Shown here: positions 753-55,200 of the stretch, one piece after another
Position numbering within the stretch: the stretch's first letter is position 1
Layout: each line of letters opens with the position of its first letter
DNA from: a virus
Reading direction: 5' to 3' (one strand)
DNA: 64,000 bases
Virus genome (UHGV): UHGV-0218015
Translations under genes and position numbers: made by a program
The notes under the pieces: generated by a model
Told to the model about the DNA's origin: nothing
The model's database searches: none
What the model saw: only the letters and a program-made list of their open reading frames with translations

Positions 753-2528
753 GTGTTTAAAGATGCAATCAAAAAGCTTAAAGAGAGTGGTAAAATAGTA
801 CCCTTTAACCGCGCGATTGCGGAAGGAGTCGGATATACACAAGCCAAAGATGGTATTCACGATCGTGTGCATCGTATCTTGAAACGTGAGCTAGATTACC
901 ATCCTGTAGAGAATCCGCGTGTTCCTGAAGGCTTGGCTGTATTGGGTGTTCGTTTAATGTCGCCGTTCGAAACTTTTATCTACAAGTTGTCTCGCTCAGA
1001 GAGCAGCAGAATGGATAAACGTCGTGGGGTGATGTCTATAGCGAATACCGATGCGTATATGGTCATGTCGTCGTTCCGTATTCCTGGCGACTCAAGGCCG
1101 ATCTCAAGACCGATTAACTTGCCATTCATTCGTCGTGGTGGGTTGATGAACTATTACGGGACAACGTACCACGTTGCGCCTGTTATTCATCAGCCGGGTA
1201 TCTGTCGTGAGCATGGTGGGGTGTTTGTTAATTTTGACTTTAAACGTAAAGCGTCACTAAAATTCTGTAAGCACCCGGTACGTATTTTAGTGAATGGGAA
1301 GAAAGAAGAGTTGTTCTTGCCCGGAACAAACAATTTGTTTAAAGCCAAAAACGCCACACATCCTGATACGGACGAGAAACCGTTAATGTACTGGTTATTC
1401 GGACGTTATGGATTTAAGGAAGCCATCAAACGTTATACTGGTGTGGATGTAGAGATATATCCTGCATTCAAAGTACCTGAAATCGATCTCGATAAAAAAG
1501 TAGTAATCGGTTCAGGTGAACCTAAGCATAATCGGGCGATTATGTACGTAGTGACGGTTCCTGCAGAGGCTTTACCGAATCTCGATAAAGCGGGATGGGA
1601 TCAAAACGAACACTTATTACTCGTAGCGATTTCTGCATTCTTTAAAGCAGCGCACTATTATTGCGGAAAACAAGCGATTAAAAACGGCAACGTTGTTCCT
1701 TTACCGCCGTTGTTTACCGCTATTAATGAACTTGCAATGGAGGACGATGTTGTAAACCTGAATTCCTCCGCAATTTGGCGGGAGATTTTGGGGAGAAGTA
1801 TTGTTGGACTTAAACCGTCTGATATTGAACTGGCACACAGCATGACGAAACACTATACGGAGTGTGAACGCTACGTTAACTCAACATTCCGTGGCGAGTT
1901 AATGATGTCAGATCCCGATATCCCGGACGATATGGATATGTTTGATTTCTTCTGGTACGCGACGAAGTTGATGGTGAGAACGCGCCTCACGAAACAAGGC
2001 GATATTCCGTCAATGTATGGAAAACGTCTGACCGTAACAGATTACCTGTTATTAGGTGAGCGTGGTTTTACACCTACCATTGCTGCGATTCGTTTTCACT
2101 TGGGACAAACGGAGAATAGAACACCGGAGTCTTGTGCGAACATGATACGCAGTGCGTTGAATAAAGACATTGTAACCAGCCTGGTATTGCGGAACATTAC
2201 CGGTAACGGCGGTGTAAGTTATTTCAACGCTTCTACAGAGTCTATGGTGCTGGGGGTTTCAACCCATGCTATCAGCCAGACAGAAACAGAATCAAAACGT
2301 AGCAGCAAGGGCGGTAAGACGGTTAACCTTAACGACCGGACAAAACATGCCTCTGCATCTCATCTGGAATGTGGTAACGTGTATTACATTCCGAAATCAT
2401 CACCGTTCAAATCGGGCATTCTCAATCCGTATATGAAGACGAATACCCAACTGGTGATGGTACGTAATCCAAAACTCAACGACTTGATCCAAGCAACCGA
2501 AGAAGACATTGCGAAGATTGGCCGTTAA
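753..2528 (+). CDS. hypothetical protein (591 aa)
   Basis: Long ORF in co-directional block, GTG start just after upstream stop; no recognisable motif. Confidence 0.55.
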   Translation: MFKDAIKKLKESGKIVPFNRAIAEGVGYTQAKDGIHDRVHRILKRELDYHPVENPRVPEGLAVLGVRLMSPFETFIYKLSRSESSRMDKRRGVMSIANTDAYMVMSSFRIPGDSRPISRPINLPFIRRGGLMNYYGTTYHVAPVIHQPGICREHGGVFVNFDFKRKASLKFCKHPVRILVNGKKEELFLPGTNNLFKAKNATHPDTDEKPLMYWLFGRYGFKEAIKRYTGVDVEIYPAFKVPEIDLDKKVVIGSGEPKHNRAIMYVVTVPAEALPNLDKAGWDQNEHLLLVAISAFFKAAHYYCGKQAIKNGNVVPLPPLFTAINELAMEDDVVNLNSSAIWREILGRSIVGLKPSDIELAHSMTKHYTECERYVNSTFRGELMMSDPDIPDDMDMFDFFWYATKLMVRTRLTKQGDIPSMYGKRLTVTDYLLLGERGFTPTIAAIRFHLGQTENRTPESCANMIRSALNKDIVTSLVLRNITGNGGVSYFNASTESMVLGVSTHAISQTETESKRSSKGGKTVNLNDRTKHASASHLECGNVYYIPKSSPFKSGILNPYMKTNTQLVMVRNPKLNDLIQATEEDIAKIGR

Positions 2529-19092: not shown

Positions 19093-19099
19093 AACCTTA

Positions 19100-19136
19100 C
19101 CCCTACTTAACGGTAGGGGCGGGTTTCTTTTTTATT
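19100..19136 (+). terminator. rho-independent terminator
   Basis: cccctac-ttaacg-gtagggg then tttcttttttatt. Confidence 0.75.
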
Positions 19137-19157
19137 GTAAATTATTACAACTGTTAC

Positions 19158-19186
19158 CCTCATTGTGAGAAGTTTCACTTAACGTG
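19158..19186 (+). promoter_or_regulatory. degenerate variant (inverted repeat plus cacttaac)
   Basis: cattgtgagaagtttcacttaacg upstream of the kinase-like gene. Confidence 0.25.
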
Positions 19187-19206
19187 CGTAAAAAGGTAAA
19201 ACTATA

Positions 19207-19830
19207 ATGCTTAAGACAGTGTCTATTGATGGTCCTGACTTTTCTGGGAAATCAACGTTGTGTAAAATGGTAAAAGCGATGTTGGAATCCGCCGGATTAA
19301 AAGTTTGCGTTCGGAACCATCCGACATCTGAAACCGAGGCGGGCATTCGTGCACGCAGTTTGGTTGTACAGTCTGCTTCGAATACAAAAATTGCTGAAGC
19401 GATGTGTGATGATTTCCTTCACACGTTGGACCACGTTGTTGATGAATACGATGTTGTTATTTTCGATCGCTTCTGTCCTTCAACGATTGTTTATCAGGGG
19501 ACAGATGGTAAGGACGTGGTTTTCCAACGTAAGCTAACTCGTCATTTCCACACTCCTGACCTTTATGTTTGGACAGATGTTGATTACCCAACAGCGTTAG
19601 CGCGATTTAAGAAACGTGTAGAAGAACAAGGTAAGAATTGGGATGATGAGGTACTTACAGTTAAGTATCTAAAGGACAACCAATGTTGGGATGGTTTACG
19701 TGACCATTATCGATTCGCGCACCACATCCTAACAGAAGGCGGTTGTCTTCACACGTTATTACCGGTAACGCAGAATGACGATTACCGTTTGAAAGCCGCA
19801 GAGATTGTTACGCACATTTTAGCGAACTAA
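19207..19830 (+). CDS. thymidylate kinase-like (d)NMP kinase
   Basis: P-loop IDGPDFSGKST and VIFDRFCPSTIVYQG resembling the TMPK DR..S..AYQG region. Confidence 0.5.
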   Translation: MLKTVSIDGPDFSGKSTLCKMVKAMLESAGLKVCVRNHPTSETEAGIRARSLVVQSASNTKIAEAMCDDFLHTLDHVVDEYDVVIFDRFCPSTIVYQGTDGKDVVFQRKLTRHFHTPDLYVWTDVDYPTALARFKKRVEEQGKNWDDEVLTVKYLKDNQCWDGLRDHYRFAHHILTEGGCLHTLLPVTQNDDYRLKAAEIVTHILAN

Positions 19831-19836
19831 CCGCTT

Positions 19837-19875
19837 AGGTACCACCCAACGGTGGTACCTATATTTTATTTTTTC
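19837..19875 (+). terminator. rho-independent terminator
   Basis: aggtaccacc-caac-ggtggtacct then T-rich tail. Confidence 0.75.
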
Positions 19876-19920
19876 TCAGATATATATTACTTAGGTGAGA
19901 GTTACAATTAACTCTTTACA
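19871..19920 (+). promoter_or_regulatory. conserved promoter-like cassette, copy 1
   Basis: ttttctcagatatatattacTtaggtgagagt plus a downstream inverted repeat; ~30 nt near-identical to copies at 38943 and 43316; sits between terminator and SD. Confidence 0.45.
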
Positions 19921-19949
19921 CCGACTTGTTAACCTAAAGGAGTATTACC

Positions 19950-20309
19950 GTGGCTTACAATCACAATTCCATCGTTCTGGCAAAACGTAAATTTGGCCTT
20001 CATTTGTCTTACGTAGTTTGTCATTTGACCACGAAAGACATTACCCAGCGTGAGCTTGCCCAGCTTGCGAAAGTTTCACAACCCGTTATCTCATCTATTA
20101 AGAACGAACGCGTAGAACGTTTAAGCTTGCCGATTATGATGAAAGTTGCTGATGCGATTCGTCTGAAATATCAGATTAGTTTTAATTCCGTTAAGGGTCG
20201 TTGCTCAGTAACCGTTCACGTAGAGTCCGCATTGGACTACGTTGCAAACACGTCCATTAAACGTACCAAGAAGAATGTGCGTTTTATCACTAACACTGTA
20301 ACACACTAA
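19950..20309 (+). CDS. helix-turn-helix DNA-binding protein (putative)
   Basis: ITQRELAQLAKVSQPVISSIKN is HTH-like; GTG start 8 nt after AAGGAG; preceded by promoter cassette. Confidence 0.4.
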   Translation: MAYNHNSIVLAKRKFGLHLSYVVCHLTTKDITQRELAQLAKVSQPVISSIKNERVERLSLPIMMKVADAIRLKYQISFNSVKGRCSVTVHVESALDYVANTSIKRTKKNVRFITNTVTH

Positions 20310-25133: not shown

Positions 25134-25147
25134 TGGCTGTCTAAAAA

Positions 25148-25190
25148 ATTTAAGATATATTTCATCTATGTGAGAATTCTCACTTAACTA
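25148..25190 (+). promoter_or_regulatory. degenerate variant of the cassette
   Basis: tttaagatatatttcatctatgtgagaattctcacttaac; palindrome gtgagaattctcac. Confidence 0.3.
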
Positions 25191-25206
25191 AATGGAGTAA
25201 TCTAAA

Positions 25207-25483: not shown

Positions 25484-25520
25484 CCCTCTCTCCTAACGGA
25501 GAGAGGGTACTTTTATTTTT
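25484..25520 (+). terminator. rho-independent terminator (same stem as 24437)
   Basis: ccctctctcc-taac-ggagagaggg then T-rich tail. Confidence 0.75.
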
Positions 25521-30376: not shown

Positions 30377-33300
30377 ATGGCTAAAGCGGTAAAGAAAATA
30401 CGTTTACACGACTTACATCCGTACACCGGGGATATCGGTGAAGGCGTTTTACTTTTTTCGAAAGACGAAAAAGATTATAAGTTACCAGTCCGCGAGATCG
30501 TTGCGGACATTGACACCGTCAGAAGTGCGGTTGCTGATGCACAAACGGCTGCGGCCAAATCACAACAGTCCGCAACAGAAGCTACGAAAGCTAAAGATTT
30601 AGCAGAAACAGCGAAGCAACAGACCACCACTTTAGCTTCCACAGTTAATGAGCAAGCGGGAACCGTCGCCACTAAAACTGCGGAGGTTAACAAAAAACAC
30701 GCTGAAGTTTTAGCAGCGAAAACTGCCGTAGATACTGTTTCACAATCAGTAAATGAGAAGGCTCAAGCTGTCGCCGCAAGCGAACAATCTGTGACAGCTG
30801 TAGCGGCTGATGTAACTAAGAAAGCAGAAACGGTTACGCAACGGGCCGGACAGGTTCAACAGACCGCTACCAGTATCGCAAATACTGCGGCTTCAATTGA
30901 GGCCAGTAAGGGCGCGGTGGAGAAGGTTGCTGCGCAGGTTACGAAAGATAAAGAAAGCTCAGAAGGCGCAGCTACACGCTCGGAGTCAGCCGCTCTGCGT
31001 GCGGAGAAAATCGCTGCACAGGGTTTAGTTGACGCTAGTACGACCGGTAAAGGTATCGTTAAACTTAACAATACCCTGACTAGCGAATCCGTGACGGAGG
31101 CTGCCACACCGTCCACGGTTAAACAGCTGAACGACGAATTACAGTTAAAAGCCGATAAACATTCGCCGAATTTTACGGGTAACCCGACATCACCAACGCC
31201 TCCAAAGGACTCGAATGACACGAGCATCTCCACAACGGCCTGGGTGCGTGCTGCTATCGCGGAATTGGTTGGTTCTTCACCTGAGACGTTAGATACCTTA
31301 GCGGAATTAGCTACGGCGTTAGGTAATGACCCTAACTTCGCAACAACGATTACTGAGAAACTTGCACAGAAGCAACCTATCAGTCCACTACTTACTGCTA
31401 TTGCCGCAGTCACAACCGCAGCAAACAAGCTCCCTTATTTCACTGGCACTAATAAAGTCGGGTTAACTGACTTTACAGAAACCGCCAGAACCTTGTTAGC
31501 AAAAGGGACAACTGCGGATATCATCAATTTCTTGGGATTAAAAGCCACTGTAGATAAAGCGAACTCTGCGTTACAGAAAAACTCTAACGGTGCTGATATC
31601 CCCAATAAAGAAACCTTTGCTCGCAATATTGGTCTATCTCCTGATACCTATCTGCGTTTCCGTGGTGAAATGCCCGCAGATGCTGATATTAACACATTTG
31701 CTCCAGATGCCAATTACACAGGAACATGGTCCAAGTCGACATCAACAAACGCATCGATAGCAAAACACTTCCCGGAAGACGGTGCGGTAGGTTATCTAGA
31801 AGTGTATAAAGCGGGCAACTACAGTGGAGCGCAACGTTTTACCTGCCGTAATGGTAACGTGTACAACCGCATGTTGTCAGCCGCGTGGAACGGAACTAAT
31901 GGCCCGTGGTCACCGTGGAGAATGGTAACTACAGGTGTACGCCCGTTATCTACATCGATCGATCTGAACTCCTTAGGCGGCGCTGAGCACATGGGTAACT
32001 GGCGTAACTCGTCCAGTTCGTTAGCGGTGTTCGACAGACATTATCCTGAAGAGGGCGGTAATGCGCAAGGCGTATTAGAAGTCATGGAAGGCGGTCTTTA
32101 TGGACGTTTACAACGTTACACCACTCGTCGTGGTACGATGTATGTCCGTGGTTTGACTGCGACTTGGGATTCGTCTAATCCGCAGTGGGAAGATTGGATT
32201 CAGGTTGGGTATCAGGTAGACGGTGCCTACTATAAGGGTAGCTTTAACGACTTAACTAAACCGGGTCGCTTTAGTGTTACCGGCGAGGCTACAGACGGTC
32301 CGTTAACAGACTCTGCTGGCGCAACCTTGCTAGGCGTTTGCGAAGTTACCTTACGCTTAGACGGTTCAGGTGTTGAACAAAATTATACCACATACGGTAC
32401 AGGCGCAACTTCGAAAGGTCGCAAGTTCCAACGAATTCGTACAGGAAATGCCTGGAGCGAATGGCGAGAGATTTTCACATCCTATTCACTCCCGTTGGCT
32501 TTAGGGATCGGTGGGGTTGCTGCTAAGGTAGATCCGTTAGACTGGCAAACCTTCGACTTCGTTCCTGGCCAGATGATAAGTACACCATTGAATACCATGA
32601 AAAACATTCCTGCGGGAATGGATTGGGGTGTTATCGACGGTAACTTGGTTACTATTCTTGTAGGGGCGTCGGAGGACACCGGTACTGGCCGGAGTATGTT
32701 GGTCTGGCGTGGTACAGTGTCTACTGCTAACTATCGCTTCTTTGCTGTTCGCGTCGCTGGTGAAAAGGGTAAACGTACTATTACTAGCCGCCAGATGCCC
32801 GTATTGAATGCAGCGCATACGTGGGCAGAAAAACAGACCTTTGCAAAAGGGTTATCAGGTGAGTTAACAGGCAATGCTGCTACGGCAACGAAACTGAAAA
32901 CAGCCCGTTTAATCGGCGGTGTAAGTTTCGACGGTAGCGGAGACATTAGCCTCCCTGGTGTAAACCAACAGGGTAATCAAAACACCTCTGGGAACGCGGG
33001 AACCGCAACCAAATTACAAACGGCTCGAAACATCAACGGTGTGAAATTTGATGGGTCTAGAGACATCAATATCAACACGTTGGTAGGACGTGGACGTGTT
33101 ACTGCACTGACTGGATCAAACAAAGGTACACCCGGTATTCAGATGTACGAAGTTTACAATAACGGTTATCCAACCGCTTATGGTAACTTACTGCATTTGG
33201 GCGGTTCTGCTGCGCTAGGCGAAGGGGAACTGTTAATCGGATGGTCGGGGACGAGCGGTGCGCACGCACCCGTTTATATTCGTAGTCGACGTGATACTGC

Positions 33301-34816
33301 TGATGCGCCGTGGTCAGATTGGGCACAAGTTTATACTGCCCGTGATAGCATTCCTGGTGTAAATGCCACAGGTAATCAGGATACTACCGGCAACGCCGCT
33401 ACCGCGACGAAACTGAAAACCGCTCGCAGGATCGGAGGCGTTAGCTTTGACGGTACAGGTGATATCAATTTACCGGGCGTTAACCAGCAAGGCAACCAGA
33501 ATACGACAGGTAATGCAGCGACCGCTACTAAGTTACAAACCGCACGTAAGATCGGCGGTGTGGTGTTCGATGGGACAAAAGACGTTAATCTTCCTGGTGT
33601 AAACCAAACCGGTAACCAATCGACTACGGGGAATGCGGCGACAGCGACTAAGCTACAGACTGCTCGAAATATAGGTGGCGTAGCTTTTGATGGTACTAAA
33701 GACATCAGTTTACCTGGAGTAAACCAAACAGGGAATCAGTCGACCACCGGAAACGCAGCCACGGCAACAAAGTTGCAAACCGCAAGAACCATCAATGGTA
33801 TTGCGTTTGATGGCACTAGAAATATATCGTTAGGGCCAGCCGAAATAGGTTGTCCGGCATCACCTAGTGGTTGGTTAGAAACTGGCGCTAATGGCGGTGC
33901 AATAACTACAGCACAGCTAGTGACGTTATTGAAAAATAACGGCGCATTTACCACAAGATCGTGGGTTGCTCGCTGTGCGTGGGCTTATGCCGCCAGTGCG
34001 TCCATACCTCACAGCGAGACGGGTTGTGGTGTCATTCCGTTAGCTGGGGCCGTTATAGAAGTCATTAGTAACGGCAACAGCACAAACAACTACACGATCC
34101 GTATAACGACCGCCACAACGACGAGCGTCGGCGGAGCACTCACTAATGCGGAGTTTATCTACGTATTTAACGGCGATGGATACTCACCAGGCTGGCGTCG
34201 TGCTTACAATACGAGAAACAAGCCAACTGCTGCGGAAGTGGGCGCGTTACCGTCAGGGGGCGGTACTGTAGGCGGTGATTTAACCGTTAATGGTAAATTG
34301 GCCACTAAATACCCTGATTTTCGAATCGCTTACGGTACCTACGGTTTTATTTTACGTAACGACGGTGCCAATACCTATTTCTTAGTAACCGACGCCGGAC
34401 AAGCCGCAGCGGGTTCCTGGAACGGATTACGCCCGTTGTCTTTTAATAATTCTAACGGCCAAGTAAACTTTGGACATAACGTTACTGGCAACGGTAACGG
34501 TTCGTTTAACGACGTACAGATTCGTTCTGACCGTCGTAACAAACGTAATCTGGTGAAGCTGGATAAAGCTTTGGATCGGTTAGAGTTACTAACCGGTTAT
34601 TTGTACGAAATTCAGCATCCTGATGACGGTTGGCAGACTTCTGTAGGTCTAATTGCTCAGGACGCATTAGAAGCGTTACCTGAACTTGTGTCAGAGGACG
34701 ACGATGCCATTTCAGGCGAAAAACGTTTACGTCTAAATTACAATGGCGTTATTGCGCTGTTAGTAGAGGGTATGAAGTCTCTTCGCCGAGAGCTTAAAGA
34801 ACTCAAGGGGAATTAA
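30377..34816 (+). CDS. tail fibre protein with C-terminal S74-type intramolecular chaperone
   Basis: 1479 aa; Ala-rich N-terminal region, TLDTLAELATALGNDPNF tail-fibre motif, six ~40-aa repeats (GNAATATKLQTAR..GGV.FDG), C-terminal SDRRNKRNLVKLDKALDRL...YNGVIALLVEGMKSL matching the autoproteolytic chaperone. Confidence 0.8.
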   Translation: MAKAVKKIRLHDLHPYTGDIGEGVLLFSKDEKDYKLPVREIVADIDTVRSAVADAQTAAAKSQQSATEATKAKDLAETAKQQTTTLASTVNEQAGTVATKTAEVNKKHAEVLAAKTAVDTVSQSVNEKAQAVAASEQSVTAVAADVTKKAETVTQRAGQVQQTATSIANTAASIEASKGAVEKVAAQVTKDKESSEGAATRSESAALRAEKIAAQGLVDASTTGKGIVKLNNTLTSESVTEAATPSTVKQLNDELQLKADKHSPNFTGNPTSPTPPKDSNDTSISTTAWVRAAIAELVGSSPETLDTLAELATALGNDPNFATTITEKLAQKQPISPLLTAIAAVTTAANKLPYFTGTNKVGLTDFTETARTLLAKGTTADIINFLGLKATVDKANSALQKNSNGADIPNKETFARNIGLSPDTYLRFRGEMPADADINTFAPDANYTGTWSKSTSTNASIAKHFPEDGAVGYLEVYKAGNYSGAQRFTCRNGNVYNRMLSAAWNGTNGPWSPWRMVTTGVRPLSTSIDLNSLGGAEHMGNWRNSSSSLAVFDRHYPEEGGNAQGVLEVMEGGLYGRLQRYTTRRGTMYVRGLTATWDSSNPQWEDWIQVGYQVDGAYYKGSFNDLTKPGRFSVTGEATDGPLTDSAGATLLGVCEVTLRLDGSGVEQNYTTYGTGATSKGRKFQRIRTGNAWSEWREIFTSYSLPLALGIGGVAAKVDPLDWQTFDFVPGQMISTPLNTMKNIPAGMDWGVIDGNLVTILVGASEDTGTGRSMLVWRGTVSTANYRFFAVRVAGEKGKRTITSRQMPVLNAAHTWAEKQTFAKGLSGELTGNAATATKLKTARLIGGVSFDGSGDISLPGVNQQGNQNTSGNAGTATKLQTARNINGVKFDGSRDININTLVGRGRVTALTGSNKGTPGIQMYEVYNNGYPTAYGNLLHLGGSAALGEGELLIGWSGTSGAHAPVYIRSRRDTADAPWSDWAQVYTARDSIPGVNATGNQDTTGNAATATKLKTARRIGGVSFDGTGDINLPGVNQQGNQNTTGNAATATKLQTARKIGGVVFDGTKDVNLPGVNQTGNQSTTGNAATATKLQTARNIGGVAFDGTKDISLPGVNQTGNQSTTGNAATATKLQTARTINGIAFDGTRNISLGPAEIGCPASPSGWLETGANGGAITTAQLVTLLKNNGAFTTRSWVARCAWAYAASASIPHSETGCGVIPLAGAVIEVISNGNSTNNYTIRITTATTTSVGGALTNAEFIYVFNGDGYSPGWRRAYNTRNKPTAAEVGALPSGGGTVGGDLTVNGKLATKYPDFRIAYGTYGFILRNDGANTYFLVTDAGQAAAGSWNGLRPLSFNNSNGQVNFGHNVTGNGNGSFNDVQIRSDRRNKRNLVKLDKALDRLELLTGYLYEIQHPDDGWQTSVGLIAQDALEALPELVSEDDDAISGEKRLRLNYNGVIALLVEGMKSLRRELKELKGN
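32833..33072 (+). repeat. in-frame 120-bp coding repeats, copies 1-2 (tail fibre)
   Basis: Units begin cctggtgtaaacc; encode GNAATATKL.TAR..GGV.FDG. Confidence 0.6.
33353..33832 (+). repeat. four tandem 120-bp coding repeats (tail fibre)
   Basis: Unit starts at 33353, 33473, 33593, 33713; protein-level conservation with synonymous divergence. Confidence 0.7.
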
Positions 34817-38898: not shown

Positions 38899-38904
38899 TT
38901 TAAA

Positions 38905-38945
38905 CCGTAGGATGGACTTAGTCCATCCTACGGTTTTTATATTTT
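38905..38945 (+). terminator. rho-independent terminator after tailspike gene
   Basis: 13-bp stem ccgtaggatggac / gtccatcctacgg then T-run. Confidence 0.8.
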
Positions 38946-38995
38946 TTCTCAGATATATATTACCTAGGAGAGAGTGAAATTTACGTTCACTCCAT
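38943..38995 (+). promoter_or_regulatory. conserved promoter-like cassette, copy 2
   Basis: ttttctcagatatatattacctaggagagagt plus inverted repeat gagtgaa/ttcactc. Confidence 0.45.
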
Positions 38996-39021
38996 TAGTT
39001 ATAGCCGAAAAGGAGGATTAG

Positions 39022-43039: not shown

Positions 43040-43310
43040 AACGGTTGTATTTCGTAGTAATGGTGATGTGGTTTTGTATCGTGGTAAGAAACGTATTCGT
43101 ACGTTAGAATACCGAGAAGCAAAACGTTTCGTTGAAGAGTGTGCGTGGTTAATGCATTACGAAGGGAACTATCGCGCCATCTTAGAAGCACCGCGTTTAG
43201 AACGTGCAGTTGCGCAGATGGCAATAGGTAATCCTAAGAACTGTTACCTGGCCCGTAAGCCCAAATACCTACAGCGTGTCTCGCTAGGCAGTTTTATTGC
43301 GGGTTTTTAA
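43029..43310 (+). CDS. hypothetical protein
   Basis: ATG at 43029 overlapping upstream stop. Confidence 0.4.
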   Translation: MKRETVVFRSNGDVVLYRGKKRIRTLEYREAKRFVEECAWLMHYEGNYRAILEAPRLERAVAQMAIGNPKNCYLARKPKYLQRVSLGSFIAGF

Positions 43311-43315
43311 TAAAA

Positions 43316-43365
43316 ATATTTTCAGATATATATTACCTAGGTGAGAGTTCAGTTACTCTCACTTA
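43316..43365 (+). promoter_or_regulatory. conserved promoter-like cassette, copy 3
   Basis: tttcagatatatattacctaggtgagagt plus inverted repeat gtgagagt/actctcac, then cttaac. Confidence 0.45.
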
Positions 43366-43391
43366 ACGAAACCATTTTAGGAGAATATACC

Positions 43392-52445: not shown

Positions 52446-52993
52446 TCATCTTCTCCTTTAACTAAACCTAGCTCAATTAACAATTCAAAATCGATTTGGC
52501 GAAATTTGTTATCAAAACCAGAATCCCAATCGATGTGTAATCCTTGTCGTTCTTCATCGGTAAGTTCAGGATAAATTAAATCATGGAACGCTTCACGTTC
52601 CTCGTAAAATCCATCGATAGTAGAATCTGGATTCCGCATTGCGTAAATCGTGATGCCCGGAAAGGATAATCCTAATGCTGTTATAGATTCGACGCTTGGT
52701 TCTTGCAAGGCCCTGCGTAATAGCACGATTTTATGTCGTGGAAAATCTAGTACACGTTGTTCAAACCCAGGATTCCGTTTCTCAATTTCTGTAACTGAAA
52801 GATCGGTGAGTTCTGTGCAATACATTGGGATAACTACAGTTACTCCGTGGCGAATTAATAATCGTTTAACATCGTCAGTGAAGTCTTCACCATTAATTTG
52901 CACATAACAACCAAACAATTTTGTAGTTTCTAAAAATTTTTCCAGAAAACGGAATTTACGCTTCGTAATATTGTGGATCAGAATTGGCTTCAT
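52421..52993 (-). CDS. hypothetical protein
   Basis: ORF overlapping both neighbours. Confidence 0.45.
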   Translation of the reverse strand: MKPILIHNITKRKFRFLEKFLETTKLFGCYVQINGEDFTDDVKRLLIRHGVTVVIPMYCTELTDLSVTEIEKRNPGFEQRVLDFPRHKIVLLRRALQEPSVESITALGLSFPGITIYAMRNPDSTIDGFYEEREAFHDLIYPELTDEERQGLHIDWDSGFDNKFRQIDFELLIELGLVKGEDECLLLTKA

Positions 52994-54278
52994 CTTTGGT
53001 TTCTCTCAATTGTTTTTCTTTCTGGGTACGTTCACGTACGCAACGAGGGCAATAACACATGCTATTGTCATGAAAATCTTTCACTGACGTCGTGCCCATT
53101 TTCTGTTTCCAATATTCCGCAACCATCAACTTTGCAGTTGTCCAGCCGCATTGACGGCGTTCAGCGTGATAAGCTTTGCGATCTTCTAGCGTCCCTTCTC
53201 CATTCTCGTAAGATGCAGCCGCACAACTACCACAAGCGTGCTTCATTGGACAACCTAAACAGGTTTCAGGATAGTTGGTGTATTGCGTCTGAATCTCTTC
53301 CAGCAATTTCCCGTCATCTAAGCTAACGAATTCCCGGCCAACTAATTCAAATACGGCAGAACGTGATGTTACGGTTGACATGAAACGGTTACAACCGAAG
53401 ATCTTACGATCAAATCCTAAGCAGGTCATGTGTGTTAACGTACCGCAGAACGGGCGTAAACGTTCTGGATTCAAACGTACAGTATCGTTATACAATAACT
53501 GATCACGCCAGTTTGGTTCCCAGATAGTATCAAAATCTAACCCGTCTGGAATGATGTGCGACAAAGTGTTACGTGGGTTGGTGTGTAAGCCCTTCTCAAC
53601 CCAATAATCAACCACGTCCATCATCTGCAATGCGATTGAAGTAGCCATGCTCCGTGGCATAATGTCTTCGAAGGTTACGTTGCCAGAAATAGTTCCGCCG
53701 CCAGTAATATCAATTAATGATTTCATTCCAGCAGCATAGAACGGTAACGTTTCCAACGTAAAGGTCGCTTTTACACCAAGTTCTGCAATACCGACTTCTT
53801 TTAAGTAGTTATAGCCCCGCACAGCGGCCTCGTAAGATCCTTCACGAGTTGTTGTAAAAATCCGGTACTTATCGTGCGATTCGGGCAATCCATCAATAGA
53901 CACGCCGATAGAAAGCCTGTCTTTCCAACGTTCAATAATTTCTCTATTCAAAGGTCTATCTAACAACGTTCCGTTAGTAGAGATGCTAAACATAAACGGC
54001 CGATTATGTTTTTCGCATAACTCTTCTGCGGTTTCAAATGCCGCCTTTAATAGTTTAGGCTGCATAAACGGCTCACCACCGATGATATCGATAACGACCT
54101 CGATGTTTGTCAGATCTTTATCTCGTTCAAAACAAGCGTGTAGAAAATCAACAATATCCGCCGCTTTGTTATTACGGGGATACTTACGTTCGTAACAATA
54201 CTCACAGTCCAAGTTACACGATAAATTTGTAACAATTTGATAAGTCAGTTGTTTTGGATAACTATTTTCTTGACTCAT
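52956..54278 (-). CDS. radical SAM enzyme with SPASM-type C-terminal domain (anSME-like peptide maturase candidate)
   Basis: N-terminal CNLDCEYCYE (CxxxCxxC), GGEP; C-terminal Cys clusters CLGCPMKHACGSC and CYCPRC typical of SPASM/twitch domains. Confidence 0.75.
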   Translation of the reverse strand: MSQENSYPKQLTYQIVTNLSCNLDCEYCYERKYPRNNKAADIVDFLHACFERDKDLTNIEVVIDIIGGEPFMQPKLLKAAFETAEELCEKHNRPFMFSISTNGTLLDRPLNREIIERWKDRLSIGVSIDGLPESHDKYRIFTTTREGSYEAAVRGYNYLKEVGIAELGVKATFTLETLPFYAAGMKSLIDITGGGTISGNVTFEDIMPRSMATSIALQMMDVVDYWVEKGLHTNPRNTLSHIIPDGLDFDTIWEPNWRDQLLYNDTVRLNPERLRPFCGTLTHMTCLGFDRKIFGCNRFMSTVTSRSAVFELVGREFVSLDDGKLLEEIQTQYTNYPETCLGCPMKHACGSCAAASYENGEGTLEDRKAYHAERRQCGWTTAKLMVAEYWKQKMGTTSVKDFHDNSMCYCPRCVRERTQKEKQLRETKDEANSDPQYYEA

Positions 54279-55200
54279 TTTCCGCCCCTCTATTACGCTC
54301 TGCCATCACTACACGACGAATGTACTCGTAAGCTTCTACACCTATTGAGGAGGCTAGTTGGTTACACCCTGCTTTTGTAGTTATTGGTACATTTTTAAGT
54401 TGGTTTTCTTCCCCGTCCGCGTCTATCCTGAGACTTTCGCTACAGACATTACAAGCATGATCGAAGAATCTGTTTACAATAAAACCGCAGTCTCTAGAAT
54501 TTAGAACGTTTAATCTTTCTATATTCTCCTGAATTCTAAAATACCCGTAAATAAAGTTCATAACGTGATCGGGAGATAACGGTTTTGGCATGTTTTTATC
54601 TAGTAATAAGGACATGGAACGAAAACCGTAATGATAGATAGCAGTATGTAATTGAATGATATCTTCATGCCATCTTTTGTTGGATAAATTCTCCCTCGTA
54701 ACAACAGCCCAAGTGTTAACATTATTCAAGCTGTAAATTACTTCTAACGCTTCATGACAATTATCATCAATAAAGCGCTTAAAAGGCCGTTCGGAAAGAT
54801 TAAACCCATCGATGCTAACATATATAGCATCGAATTGTTTTAACAACGGTAGATGCGATTTACGCATTTTTAAACCGTTCGTGAACATCTGGTGTTTGAG
54901 TTCAGGACGGATCGTTTTTAATTCGTCGACAAACGCCTCAATCTTTCGAGTTGCCAGTAGCGGTTCACCGCCAGTCCACTGAATTTCAGTAATGGTTGGG
55001 TTAGACGCCAACGCTTTCAAAATTCGTTCACGTTGAAACTCTCGCGGAGAATCTTCACGATGCATGTAATAGGCTCCGCCGCAGAAGCTACAGTCCAGAT
55101 TACATTTGGATGTAGCAACTACGGACAATACGGTGGGTTTATTGTATAAACGATTCGATAACCTTGGCTCTACGTCGGTTGTCATTGCAGGTGAGTCCAT
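54262..55200 (-). CDS. radical SAM enzyme (paralog B)
   Basis: TSKCNLDCSFCGG and GGEPLL; paralog of 57235..58149 with identical DNA blocks. Confidence 0.7.
   Translation of the reverse strand: MDSPAMTTDVEPRLSNRLYNKPTVLSVVATSKCNLDCSFCGGAYYMHREDSPREFQRERILKALASNPTITEIQWTGGEPLLATRKIEAFVDELKTIRPELKHQMFTNGLKMRKSHLPLLKQFDAIYVSIDGFNLSERPFKRFIDDNCHEALEVIYSLNNVNTWAVVTRENLSNKRWHEDIIQLHTAIYHYGFRSMSLLLDKNMPKPLSPDHVMNFIYGYFRIQENIERLNVLNSRDCGFIVNRFFDHACNVCSESLRIDADGEENQLKNVPITTKAGCNQLASSIGVEAYEYIRRVVMAERNRGAENESRK
54514..54597. repeat. 84-bp block identical to 57478..57561
   Basis: Identical string inside radical SAM paralogs B and A; two more shared blocks of ~38 and ~54 bp near 54838/57813 and 55081/58025. 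Confidence 0.7.

What the first reader, a model, noticed from the sequence alone, without database searches (positions are those of the whole stretch)
19871..19920. Conserved ~30-nt promoter-like cassette with downstream inverted repeat
Three near-identical copies (19871, 38943, 43316) of TTTTCTCAGATATATATTAC(C/T)TAGG(T/A)GAGAGT follow a terminator T-run and precede a variable inverted repeat and a strong SD; degenerate versions occur at 19158 and 25148. An AT-rich -10-like box without a clear -35 resembles phage-specific middle/late promoters. The inverted repeat keeps its pairing while its sequence changes, which points to a structural role such as an operator or 5'-UTR hairpin.
Basis: seen in the sequence. 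Interest (0 to 1): 0.5.

Follow-up and report, generated by a model that had tools for sequence, protein, structure and literature searches.

The report
Jumbo-phage early promoter with 5′ hairpin
The repeated ~40-bp cassette is the start signal that a giant (phiKZ/SPN3US-type) phage uses for its own injected RNA polymerase to switch on its first genes; the promoter is a known kind, but in this lineage it is fused to a co-varying RNA hairpin at the very start of the message, which does not seem to have been described.

Summary
Three near-identical copies lie at 19878, 38951 and 43324, with one degenerate copy at 25153, all on the + strand. The claimed copy at 19158 does not qualify.

The window comes from an uncultivated SPN3US-like jumbo phage of about 220 kb. 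It encodes a homolog of the phiKZ non-virion RNA polymerase subunit gp123.

The motif is the lineage's version of the phiKZ virion-RNA-polymerase early promoter:
- The consensus aligns in register with the 30 phiKZ early promoters.
- A matrix built only from phiKZ ranks the window's four sites as its top four hits.
- In SPN3US, about 24 copies are all co-oriented, almost all just upstream of a gene, and they precede all four nvRNAP genes.

So "phage-specific promoter" is right, but the class is most likely early, not middle/late.

The downstream inverted repeat is a genuine co-varying stem-loop. Seven of eight pairs show compensatory changes, and G·U pairs far outnumber A·C. It starts at the predicted first transcribed base. 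phiKZ early leaders and ordinary leaders lack it. It is therefore an RNA 5′-terminal hairpin, most plausibly an mRNA stabiliser, and not an operator.

The promoter is a new member of a known kind. The hairpin module is a modest, apparently undescribed addition. Timing and start sites are inferred, not measured.

The parts
19836..19861 (+). Intrinsic terminator of the upstream thymidylate kinase gene (11-bp stem plus T-run), directly before copy A
   Evidence: Terminator scan; sequence
19862..19902 (+). Copy A, conserved promoter block: A/T-rich upstream part 19862-19877, core AGATATATATTACTTAGG 19878-19895, start region TGAGAGT 19896-19902. Predicted start is G at 19897
   Evidence: 57 bits; 19.5 bits on the phiKZ-only matrix. 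Orthologous to SPN3US 94239 upstream of the HTH gene
19897..19916 (+). Copy A, 5' stem-loop: GAGAGTTA-CAAT-TAACTCTT
19921..19952 (+). Copy A, conserved leader with Shine-Dalgarno AAAGGAG (19936-19942) and the GTG start (19950) of a Cro/C1-type HTH gene (19950-20309)
25137..25177 (+). Copy D, degenerate class-2-like promoter: core AGATATATTTCATCTATG at 25153-25170
   Evidence: 22.4 bits; 33.5 bits on the class-2 matrix; third-best hit of the phiKZ matrix. Orthologous to SPN3US 100815
25170..25183 (+). Copy D, short palindromic stem-loop GTGAGAATTCTCAC. It is followed by SD TGGAG (25193-25197) and ATG 25207 of an 89-aa ORF that ends before the terminator at 25484-25507
38902..38936 (+). Strong intrinsic terminator (16 pairs) directly before copy B
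38935..38975 (+). Copy B, conserved promoter block: core AGATATATATTACCTAGG at 38951-38968, start region AGAGAGT
   Evidence: 51.5 bits
38972..38992 (+). Copy B, 5' stem-loop GAGTGAA-ATTTACG-TTCACTC (register shifted by 2 nt). It is followed by SD AAGGAGG (39010-39016) and ATG 39022
43308..43348 (+). Copy C, conserved promoter block: core AGATATATATTACCTAGG at 43324-43341. It overlaps the end of the upstream ORF and no terminator precedes it
   Evidence: 64 bits; 27.6 bits on the phiKZ matrix
43340..43363 (+). Copy C, 5' stem-loop GGTGAGAGT-TCAGTT-ACTCTCACT. It is followed by SD AGGAG (43379-43383) and ATG 43392
   Evidence: MFE -13.2 kcal/mol, z -2.1
753..2528 (+). Homolog of phiKZ gp123, the beta-like C-terminal subunit of the non-virion RNA polymerase. 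It marks the genome as an RNAP-encoding jumbo phage. In a ~90% identical relative, its operon has a class-2 promoter about 400 nt left of the window start
   Evidence: (PDB 7OGP_E, E 1.9e-17), (L023 site 8569)

Best explanation
Each copy is a self-contained early-expression cassette of an SPN3US-like, phiKZ-related jumbo phage.

The ~40-bp block has an A-rich part around -30, TTTC around -20, AGATATATATTAC as an extended -10, and TAGG/TGAG at the start. It is the promoter read by the multisubunit RNA polymerase that the phage carries in its virion and injects with its DNA. It therefore fires at once, without host polymerase or new protein synthesis. Transcription most likely begins at the conserved G of TGAG, which is +19 from the A of AGATAT.

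The first ~20-25 transcribed nucleotides fold into a stem-loop. Its 5' arm is fixed by the promoter's start region and its 3' arm co-evolves to match. This puts a base-paired 5' end on the message. The most likely role is to shield these first mRNAs from 5'-end-dependent decay by host RppH and RNase E, at a time when no phage protein yet exists to do so. A leader of about 50 nt with a strong, unpaired Shine-Dalgarno sequence then drives translation of small early genes.

Shown: the repeat, its conservation, its homology to the phiKZ early promoters, its genomic distribution, the covariation of the stem, and the strand bias.

Inferred: the polymerase, the timing, the exact start site and the stabilising role.
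For: 1. Genome type. The window is SPN3US/Erwinia-jumbo-phage-like and encodes a phiKZ gp123 (nvRNAP) homolog.
2. Conservation beyond the genes. The cassette is the only part of a 4-kb stretch that megablast finds in deposited phages, at 81-94% identity. It recurs in 86 phage records, at 364 places. All of the 40 best rows lie over unannotated DNA.
3. Homology to the phiKZ early promoter.
   - phiKZ has 30 sites above the shuffle maximum, all on the + strand. This equals the published 28-32 early promoters.
   - The sites include those before PHIKZ054 and PHIKZ260, whose start sites were mapped by dRNA-seq.
   - The consensus sequences nATTnAAAnnnATTTAAnATnTATATTACAnnnnTGnn and nATTAAAAATnATTTCAGATATATATTACnTAGGTGAG align in register: column correlation 0.68, against at most 0.32 when shifted.
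   - The phiKZ-only matrix ranks the window's four sites as its top four hits.
4. Distribution in SPN3US. About 24 sites, all on the + strand, nearly all 45-110 nt upstream of a + strand gene. They precede all four nvRNAP genes, which were verified against PDB 7OGP chains. None directly precedes the five genes I assign to the virion RNAP from memory of Thomas 2016 and the record's annotation.
5. Geometry. With a start at +19, the conserved blocks fall at -10, -20 and -30, with the T-rich part just upstream of -19, as described for phiKZ and 201phi2-1.
6. Hairpin.
   - 86.9% of cells are paired, against 69.3% when shuffled (0 of 500 shuffles reach it).
   - 7 of 8 pairs show compensatory double changes.
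   - The covariation score is 0.372, against at most 0.054 with the partner slid.
   - G·U 34 against A·C 12, p = 0.0016.
   - Mean MFE is -8.45 (z -2.5), against -4.4 for class-2 leaders, -4.2 for ordinary leaders and -2.6 for phiKZ early leaders.
7. 42 of 45 copies have an SD and start codon, a median of 51 nt after +19.
8. A 5'-terminal stem-loop is an established mRNA stabiliser in E. coli (Emory, Bouvet and Belasco 1992, as cited in PMC3997798).
Against: - No transcript 5' ends or time courses exist for this phage or, in the library searched, for any SPN3US-like phage. The polymerase, the timing and the start site rest on homology.
- In 201phi2-1 some nvRNAP genes are driven by middle promoters, so lying upstream of nvRNAP genes is supportive, not decisive.
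- The covariation was counted on an alignment fitted by the covariance model, which leans towards the structure.
- A strict contiguous-stem swap test gave only a modest difference: 5.8 pairs for own sequence, 4.4 swapped, 4.1 shuffled.
- Most G·U pairs sit at one basal pair.
- The stabilising role is an analogy. The stems are short and A/U-rich (-7 to -15 kcal/mol).
- phiKZ manages without the hairpin.
Confidence: 0.7

Rival explanations
1. It is the same phage-specific promoter family, but it is read by the non-virion polymerase or used at a middle stage. Alternatively, class 1 and class 2 belong to different temporal classes, for example class 1 immediate-early and class 2 delayed or middle.
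For: [quoted passage not shown]
- SPN3US has two sequence sub-classes with different leaders.
- Timing was not measured.
Against: - The motif matches the strong phiKZ early consensus in register.
- The phiKZ middle motif is described as weak and centred at -24/-22 with TACT, and the late motif as TATG.
- Class 1 and class 2 replace each other at orthologous sites: window 38951 corresponds to SPN3US 109893.
- Both classes score on the phiKZ early matrix.
Confidence: 0.12
2. The inverted repeat, or the partly palindromic TnACCTAGGTnA at the start site, is a DNA operator bound by a phage regulator such as the HTH protein encoded at 19950. Binding would shut early transcription off.
For: - An HTH gene sits directly downstream of copy A here and in SPN3US.
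- CCTAGG is a palindrome that overlaps the predicted start.
Against: - The hairpin arms differ in sequence between copies while pairing is kept. One protein could not read them all.
- G·U pairs are tolerated and A·C is not.
- The CCTAGG palindrome is broken (CTTAGG) in 20 of 45 copies.
- Loop lengths vary from 3 to 12 nt.
Confidence: 0.07
3. The stem-loop acts on transcription or processing rather than on stability. It could be an attenuator or early terminator that makes short 5' RNAs, an RNase III site, or a device that helps the nascent RNA leave the polymerase.
For: - The 3' arm is followed by 2-4 T.
- One SPN3US copy (165687) has a real terminator about 25 nt after the hairpin.
- 5'UTR-derived short RNAs made by premature termination are reported in 201phi2-1.
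Against: - The stems are A/U-rich and the T-runs too short for the terminator scan, which called only the 38972-38992 stem, with a weak tail.
- Stems of 6-12 bp are too short for RNase III (established knowledge).
- 42 of 45 copies continue into an SD and ORF at a fixed distance.
Confidence: 0.1
4. It is an ordinary host sigma-70 promoter with a strong -10 box.
For: TATATT resembles TATAAT. One 9-of-12 match, TTAATA-16-TATATT, lies at 43307-43334.
Against: - No sigma-70-type match at the other copies, and the number of such matches in the region is at chance level.
- There is no TG extension.
- Conservation extends over 40 bp, including positions irrelevant to sigma-70.
- The element is confined to RNAP-encoding jumbo phages.
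- phiKZ development does not depend on host polymerase.
Confidence: 0.02

Closest known systems
phiKZ / 201phi2-1 early promoters, read by the virion-packaged multisubunit RNA polymerase (Ceyssens 2014; Wicke 2020; Lavysh 2016, as summarised in PMC7598289)
   Same: - Same layout: A-rich -30, T-rich -20, extended AT-rich -10 (…AGATnTATATTAC…) and a conserved TG at the start, aligned in register.
- Tens of copies per genome, all co-oriented with the genes, nearly all just upstream of one.
- They sit in front of small hypothetical genes and of nvRNAP genes.
- The genome encodes the same split RNA polymerases.
   Different: - The SPN3US-lineage version is far more uniform over about 40 bp.
- It adds an invariant TAGGTGAG at the start and a co-varying 5' stem-loop plus a conserved ~50-nt leader. 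phiKZ early leaders lack the hairpin (z -0.39).
- Its start sites and timing have not been measured.
5'-terminal stem-loop mRNA stabilisers of E. coli (ompA and papA leaders; Emory, Bouvet and Belasco 1992)
   Same: - A hairpin at or within a few nucleotides of the 5' end.
- Pairing matters, not sequence.
- It is followed by an accessible ribosome binding site.
   Different: - Here the 5' arm doubles as the promoter's start region.
- The element is repeated on many transcripts of a virus.
- The stabilising effect has not been tested.
T7/SP6-type single-subunit polymerase promoters
   Same: - A long, nearly invariant phage promoter that includes the first transcribed bases.
- TAGGTGA also occurs in the SP6 promoter (from memory).
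   Different: - No single-subunit polymerase turned up among the window ORFs tested or in the SPN3US product names.
- The conserved core here is an AT-rich -10 with -20 and -30 blocks, not a -17 to +6 block.
Phage N4 early promoters (virion polymerase, DNA hairpin)
   Same: - A virion-delivered polymerase.
- Early genes.
- A hairpin associated with the promoter.
   Different: - In N4 the hairpin is in the DNA upstream of the start, with a 5-7-bp stem and a 3-nt loop, and is read as DNA (from memory; PMC4496689 was listed but not read).
- Here the hairpin lies at or after the start, loops are 3-12 nt, and G·U pairs point to RNA.

Membership tests
phiKZ-type virion-RNAP early promoter | The genome encodes split multisubunit beta/beta' RNA polymerases (a virion set and a non-virion set) | tested here: met
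   - Window ORF 753-2528 matches PHIKZ123 (7OGP_E, E 1.9e-17).
- The relative SPN3US has homologs of PHIKZ055, 071 and 074 and further genes annotated as RNAP beta subunits.
- The virion set lies outside this window.
phiKZ-type virion-RNAP early promoter | Sequence similarity, in register, to the experimentally supported phiKZ early promoter consensus | tested here: met
   - Column correlation 0.68 in register, against at most 0.32 when shifted.
- The phiKZ-only matrix puts the window's four sites at ranks 1-4. Two of them exceed the shuffle maximum.
phiKZ-type virion-RNAP early promoter | Many copies per genome, intergenic, co-oriented with the downstream genes | tested here: met
   - Window: 4 of 4 on the + strand, each before a + strand ORF.
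- SPN3US: about 24, all on the + strand; one of them (25226) lies inside a coding sequence.
- phiKZ: 30, all on the + strand.
- 86 phage records, 364 places.
phiKZ-type virion-RNAP early promoter | Located upstream of early genes, including non-virion RNAP subunit genes, and not of the virion RNAP genes | tested here: met
   - SPN3US: all four nvRNAP genes are the first or second gene after a site. None of the five genes taken to be the virion RNAP set is; that assignment rests on my memory of Thomas 2016 plus the record's annotation.
- A relative, L023, has a site before the window's own nvRNAP operon.
- Caveat: 201phi2-1 uses middle promoters for some nvRNAP genes.
phiKZ-type virion-RNAP early promoter | The AT-rich element is centred near -10 of a mapped transcription start | not testable with these tools
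   There are no transcript data. With a start at the conserved G (+19), the blocks fall at -10, -20 and -30, and the phiKZ leaders are 31-47 nt for four of five first-50-kb sites (67 nt for gp054), against the 31-40 nt typical length reported.
phiKZ-type virion-RNAP early promoter | Transcription is early and independent of host RNA polymerase and of new protein synthesis | not testable with these tools
   This needs infection experiments with rifampicin or chloramphenicol and a time course.
5'-terminal stem-loop mRNA stabiliser | A conserved base-paired structure maintained by compensatory changes on the transcribed strand | tested here: met
   - 7 of 8 pairs compensatory, 0 of 500 shuffles reach the observed values.
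- G·U 34 against A·C 12.
- MFE against controls, p = 8.5e-6.
5'-terminal stem-loop mRNA stabiliser | The stem begins within about 0-3 nt of the RNA 5' end and prolongs mRNA half-life | not testable with these tools
   The stems begin at +16 to +23, mostly +16 to +21, around the predicted start at +17 to +19. Neither the 5' end nor the half-life has been measured.
Bacterial sigma-70 promoter | A -35 hexamer 16-18 bp upstream of a -10 hexamer | tested here: not met
   No match at 19878 or 38951, one 9-of-12 match at 43307-43334, and region-wide counts equal to those of shuffles.
Intrinsic terminator (for the downstream hairpin) | A G+C-rich stem followed by a run of at least 5 T | tested here: not met
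   Only the 38972-38992 stem passes the scan, with a weak tail. The stems at 19897 and 43340 do not.
Any curated RNA family (Rfam 15) | A match at the gathering score | tested here: not met
   No match in the window. None at E up to 0.1 in two related loci.

The most novel reading that the evidence does not exclude
The invariant 5'-GGUGAG… start together with the co-varying stem-loop may be more than a passive stabiliser. It could be a tag that marks one subset of early messages (class 1, about 7 per genome) for a specific step. Examples would be recognition by a virion-delivered or very early phage protein, release of the mRNA from the compartment where the injected polymerase works, or preferential loading onto ribosomes. 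That would separate an 'immediate-early' regulon from the hairpin-less class-2 transcripts, which include the nvRNAP genes.
Probability: 0.12. Interest if true: 0.75.

Novelty: new member of a known kind. Interest (0 to 1): 0.42.

Why it matters
**Annotation.** The cassette gives a ready, sequence-only way to mark early transcription units in SPN3US-like, Erwinia, Cronobacter and related jumbo phages and in metagenomic contigs. Most of the genes behind it have no known function and are candidates for host-takeover proteins.

**Polymerase specificity.** The in-register match with phiKZ shows that the recognition code of the virion polymerase has been kept across hosts as distant as Pseudomonas and Enterobacteria. 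This helps define which promoter positions the still-unpurified virion enzyme reads.

**The hairpin.** The lineage-specific, co-varying 5' hairpin is a simple, testable case of a virus building mRNA protection, or another 5'-end function, into its promoter. It could also serve as a compact expression part for phage engineering.

Tried and rejected
- **Sigma-70 promoter:** rejected. There is no consistent -35/-10 match.
- **N4-type DNA hairpin promoter:** rejected on position, loop-length variation and G·U pairs.
- **Operator for the neighbouring HTH protein:** judged unlikely, because the arms vary and the CCTAGG palindrome is broken in 20 of 45 copies.
- **Intrinsic terminator or RNase III site for the hairpin:** not supported.
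- **Known RNA family:** none found.
- **The copy claimed at 19158:** not a matrix hit.
- **MAFFT alignment of the hairpins:** failed because loop lengths differ. I replaced it with a covariance model seeded from copies of identical geometry.
- **Strict contiguous-stem swap test:** gave only a weak signal.
- **Apparent copies without an ORF (L008/L041):** a false alarm of my regular expression. A 466-aa ORF starts within the leader and there are no tRNAs.
- **Three exact core matches inside coding sequence (L009, L019, L042):** they lack every flanking feature, so I treated them as chance matches.
- **Literature:**
  - Ceyssens 2014 and Lavysh 2016 are not held.
  - No supplementary start-site tables are held.
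  - No paper mentioning this motif string or a hairpin at jumbo-phage early promoters was found.
  - No SPN3US transcriptome was found.

Full report
**1. The observation**

The pattern TTTTCTCAGATATATATTACYTAGGWGAGAGT matches at 19871, 38944 and 43317 on the + strand with 0, 0 and 2 mismatches. None is expected by chance. The core TATATATTAC occurs only there in the 64 kb, on either strand.

It runs from -15 to +24 relative to the A of AGATAT. Positions outside my search pattern are also nearly invariant: A-15, T-13, A-10, T-4, T-2, C-1 and TGAGAgT at +18 to +24.

A weight matrix of this block scores the three window copies at 51-64 bits and a fourth site at 25153 at 22 bits. The next best site scores -9, and the best of 50 shuffles scores 3. 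The copy claimed at 19158 does not score. It shares only ATTATTAC and, 12 nt too far downstream, GTGAGAAGTTTCACTTAACG.

A canonical terminator directly precedes the copies at 19878 and 38951, but not the one at 43324.

**2. The genome**

In a 4-kb stretch around copy A, megablast against 50,697 phage records finds only the cassette itself, in jumbo phages of about 240 kb from Salmonella, Erwinia, Escherichia and Proteus, at 81-94% identity. Larger queries show about 73% DNA identity in the best-conserved structural genes. A 1349-residue protein shows 32-35% identity to SPN3US and Erwinia phage Asesino.

Closer relatives are uncultivated contigs of 220-225 kb, at 85-98% identity.

Window ORF 753-2528 is a homolog of PHIKZ123, a subunit of the solved phiKZ non-virion RNA polymerase. 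The window therefore comes from a phiKZ-related, SPN3US-like jumbo phage that encodes its own multisubunit RNA polymerases.

**3. Distribution of the element**

The 40-nt motif alone hits 86 phage records at 364 places. All of the 40 best rows lie over unannotated DNA. The exact 18-mer occurs in 44 stretches of viral contigs, nearly all from contigs of 107-260 kb.

I fetched the complete SPN3US genome and scanned it. It has seven strong copies, which I call class 1 (one of them, 4427, is intermediate), and about 17 copies of a variant, AGATAGATATTATCTnnG, which I call class 2. All are on the + strand, and almost all lie 45-110 nt upstream of a + strand gene.

The two classes replace each other at orthologous positions. 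Window 38951 (class 1) corresponds to SPN3US 109893 (class 2). Window 25153 corresponds to SPN3US 100815. They therefore belong to one family.

**4. Link to the known early promoters of phiKZ**

The review PMC7598289 states that every RNAP-encoding jumbo phage has a conserved AT-rich motif centred near -10 upstream of its early operons. It also states that this motif was confirmed as the early promoter wherever transcripts were profiled.

I tested this directly. Starting from six phiKZ sites found with the window-derived matrices, an iterated phiKZ-only matrix finds 30 sites above the shuffle maximum in the 280-kb genome, all on the + strand. That number agrees with the 28-32 early promoters reported. 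The sites include those in front of PHIKZ054 and PHIKZ260, whose start sites were mapped by dRNA-seq.

The two consensus sequences align in register:
- phiKZ: nATTnAAAnnnATTTAAnATnTATATTACAnnnnTGnn
- this lineage: nATTAAAAATnATTTCAGATATATATTACnTAGGTGAG

The column correlation is 0.68 in register and at most 0.32 when shifted. The phiKZ-only matrix places the window's four sites at ranks 1 to 4 of the whole window, on both strands.

**5. Gene context**

In the phiKZ scheme, the injected virion polymerase transcribes the early genes, and these include the non-virion polymerase genes.

In SPN3US, the four nvRNAP genes were verified by homology to PDB 7OGP chains A, C and D and to the gp123 homolog. 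Each is the first or second gene downstream of a site. The five genes I take to be the virion RNAP set have none directly upstream; that assignment rests on my memory of Thomas 2016 plus the record's annotation. phiKZ shows the same pattern.

A ~90% identical relative has a class-2 site about 400 nt to the left of where the window begins. It lies in front of the window's own nvRNAP operon.

The genes behind the window's copies are a Cro/C1-type HTH protein and small proteins with no family match. This fits the 201phi2-1 report that early promoters precede hypothetical proteins.

One caveat: in 201phi2-1 some nvRNAP genes are driven by middle promoters. The temporal class here is therefore inferred, not shown.

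**6. Start site**

T at +18 and G at +19 are conserved in both lineages. With a start at that G:
- the AT-rich core lies at -17 to -7;
- TTTC lies at -23 to -20;
- the A-rich block lies at -34 to -27.

[quoted passage not shown] It also gives phiKZ leaders of 31-47 nt for four of the five first-50-kb sites with an annotated gene (67 nt for gp054), close to the 31-40 nt typical length reported.

**7. The inverted repeat**

In almost every class-1 copy, a stem of 6-12 pairs starts at +16 to +21, with a loop of 3-12 nt.

I built a covariance model from eight copies of identical geometry. It found 58 matches in 485 kb. On its alignment:
- 86.9% of cells are paired, against 69.3% after shuffling (0 of 500 shuffles reach it);
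- 7 of 8 pairs show changes on both sides (59 cells);
- the covariation score is 0.372, against 0.132 when shuffled and at most 0.054 when the 3' partner is slid.

G·U pairs outnumber A·C by 34 to 12, p = 0.0016. This points to pairing in RNA read from the + strand rather than to a double-stranded palindrome.

The region +16 to +50 folds with a mean of -8.45 kcal/mol (z -2.5). This compares with -4.4 for class-2 leaders, -4.2 for ordinary leaders in the window (p = 1.6e-4 and 8.5e-6) and -2.6 (z -0.39) for phiKZ early leaders. The hairpin is thus specific to class 1 of this lineage.

In the three window leaders the stem starts within the first few nucleotides of the predicted transcript, and the Shine-Dalgarno sequence is left largely unpaired. 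Of 45 copies, 42 continue to a Shine-Dalgarno sequence and start codon, a median of 51 nt after +19.

Limits:
- The alignment was fitted by the model.
- Most G·U pairs sit at one basal pair.
- A cruder contiguous-stem swap test gave only 5.8 against 4.4 pairs.

**8. Mechanism proposed**

The block is the promoter for the virion-delivered polymerase. The conserved TAGGTGAG is the start region. The transcript begins with a stem-loop whose 5' arm is fixed by the promoter and whose 3' arm co-evolves with it.

A base-paired 5' end is an established way to protect E. coli mRNAs from RppH- and RNase E-dependent decay (references cited in PMC3997798). Such protection would matter most for the first messages, which are made before any phage protein exists.

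This last step is inference. Attenuation, processing or recognition by a protein are not excluded.

**9. Novelty**

The promoter is a new member of a known kind. A motif of this type is said to have been located bioinformatically in every such phage.

I found no description of the co-varying 5' hairpin or of the two leader classes in the library searched. Rfam has no matching family. However, the two key papers could not be read.

I score interest at 0.42. It is a clean, strongly supported regulatory cassette of a known class, with one modest, testable new feature.

Noticed in passing
SPN3US (L046-L050), e.g. genome positions 7390, 15614, 15707, 28969, 72486, 72684, 92540, 100815, 109893, 184044; window 25153: There is a second promoter sub-class, AGATAGATATTATCTnnG. 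Its core is partly palindromic (AGATA…TATCT), its leaders are short, and it mostly lacks the hairpin. It precedes the nvRNAP genes and swaps with class 1 at orthologous sites. phiKZ also has two sub-classes, AGATCTATATTAC and AACAGTATATTAC. Whether the sub-classes differ in strength or timing is unknown.
   Followed up: partly
window 19921-19946; many related loci (e.g. L001, L002, L004, L013, L014): After the hairpin, many copies share a conserved leader, AATCGACTATTAAYCTAAAGGAGTATT (in the window: CCGACTTGTTAACCTAAAGGAGTATT). From memory, it resembles strong phage translation leaders such as T7 gene 10. It could be a translational enhancer.
   Followed up: no
L039 8432-8520 (SPN3US genome 165687-165775): One class-1 copy has the 5' hairpin followed about 25 nt later by a strong intrinsic terminator (GGCTACCTTCGGGTAGCC plus a T-run), before the ribosome binding site. 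This could be a short RNA or an attenuator. There is no Rfam match.
   Followed up: partly
window 19099-19185: A bidirectional terminator (19099-19120) is followed by ATTATTAC and GTGAGAAGTTTCACTTAACG. The string GTGAGA…TCACTTAAC also follows the promoters at 25170 and 43342. This may be a decayed promoter or a separate leader element. A 10-of-12 sigma-70-like match lies at 19179-19208.
   Followed up: partly
window 38975-38986; SPN3US 109893 and 92540 leaders: The string GAAATTTACGTT(T) recurs in the hairpin or leader of three different promoters in two genomes. I have no explanation for it.
   Followed up: no
window 30377-34816: A 1479-residue tail-fibre ORF has stretches 58-74% identical to the fibres of P1 and Escherichia phage Cyrano, and about 49% identical to those of T6-type (T-even) phages. 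The rest of the genome is only distantly SPN3US-like. It looks like an exchanged host-range module and hints at an E. coli-like host.
   Followed up: no
window 52956-55200 (- strand): There are two adjacent radical-SAM domain ORFs, syntenic with SPN3US gp103 and gp102. Their function in these phages is unknown.
   Followed up: no
window 19891-19896, 38964-38969, 43337-43342: The start region contains CCTAGG (an AvrII site, palindromic) in the C variants and CTTAGG in the T variants. The split across 45 instances is 25 to 20.
   Followed up: no
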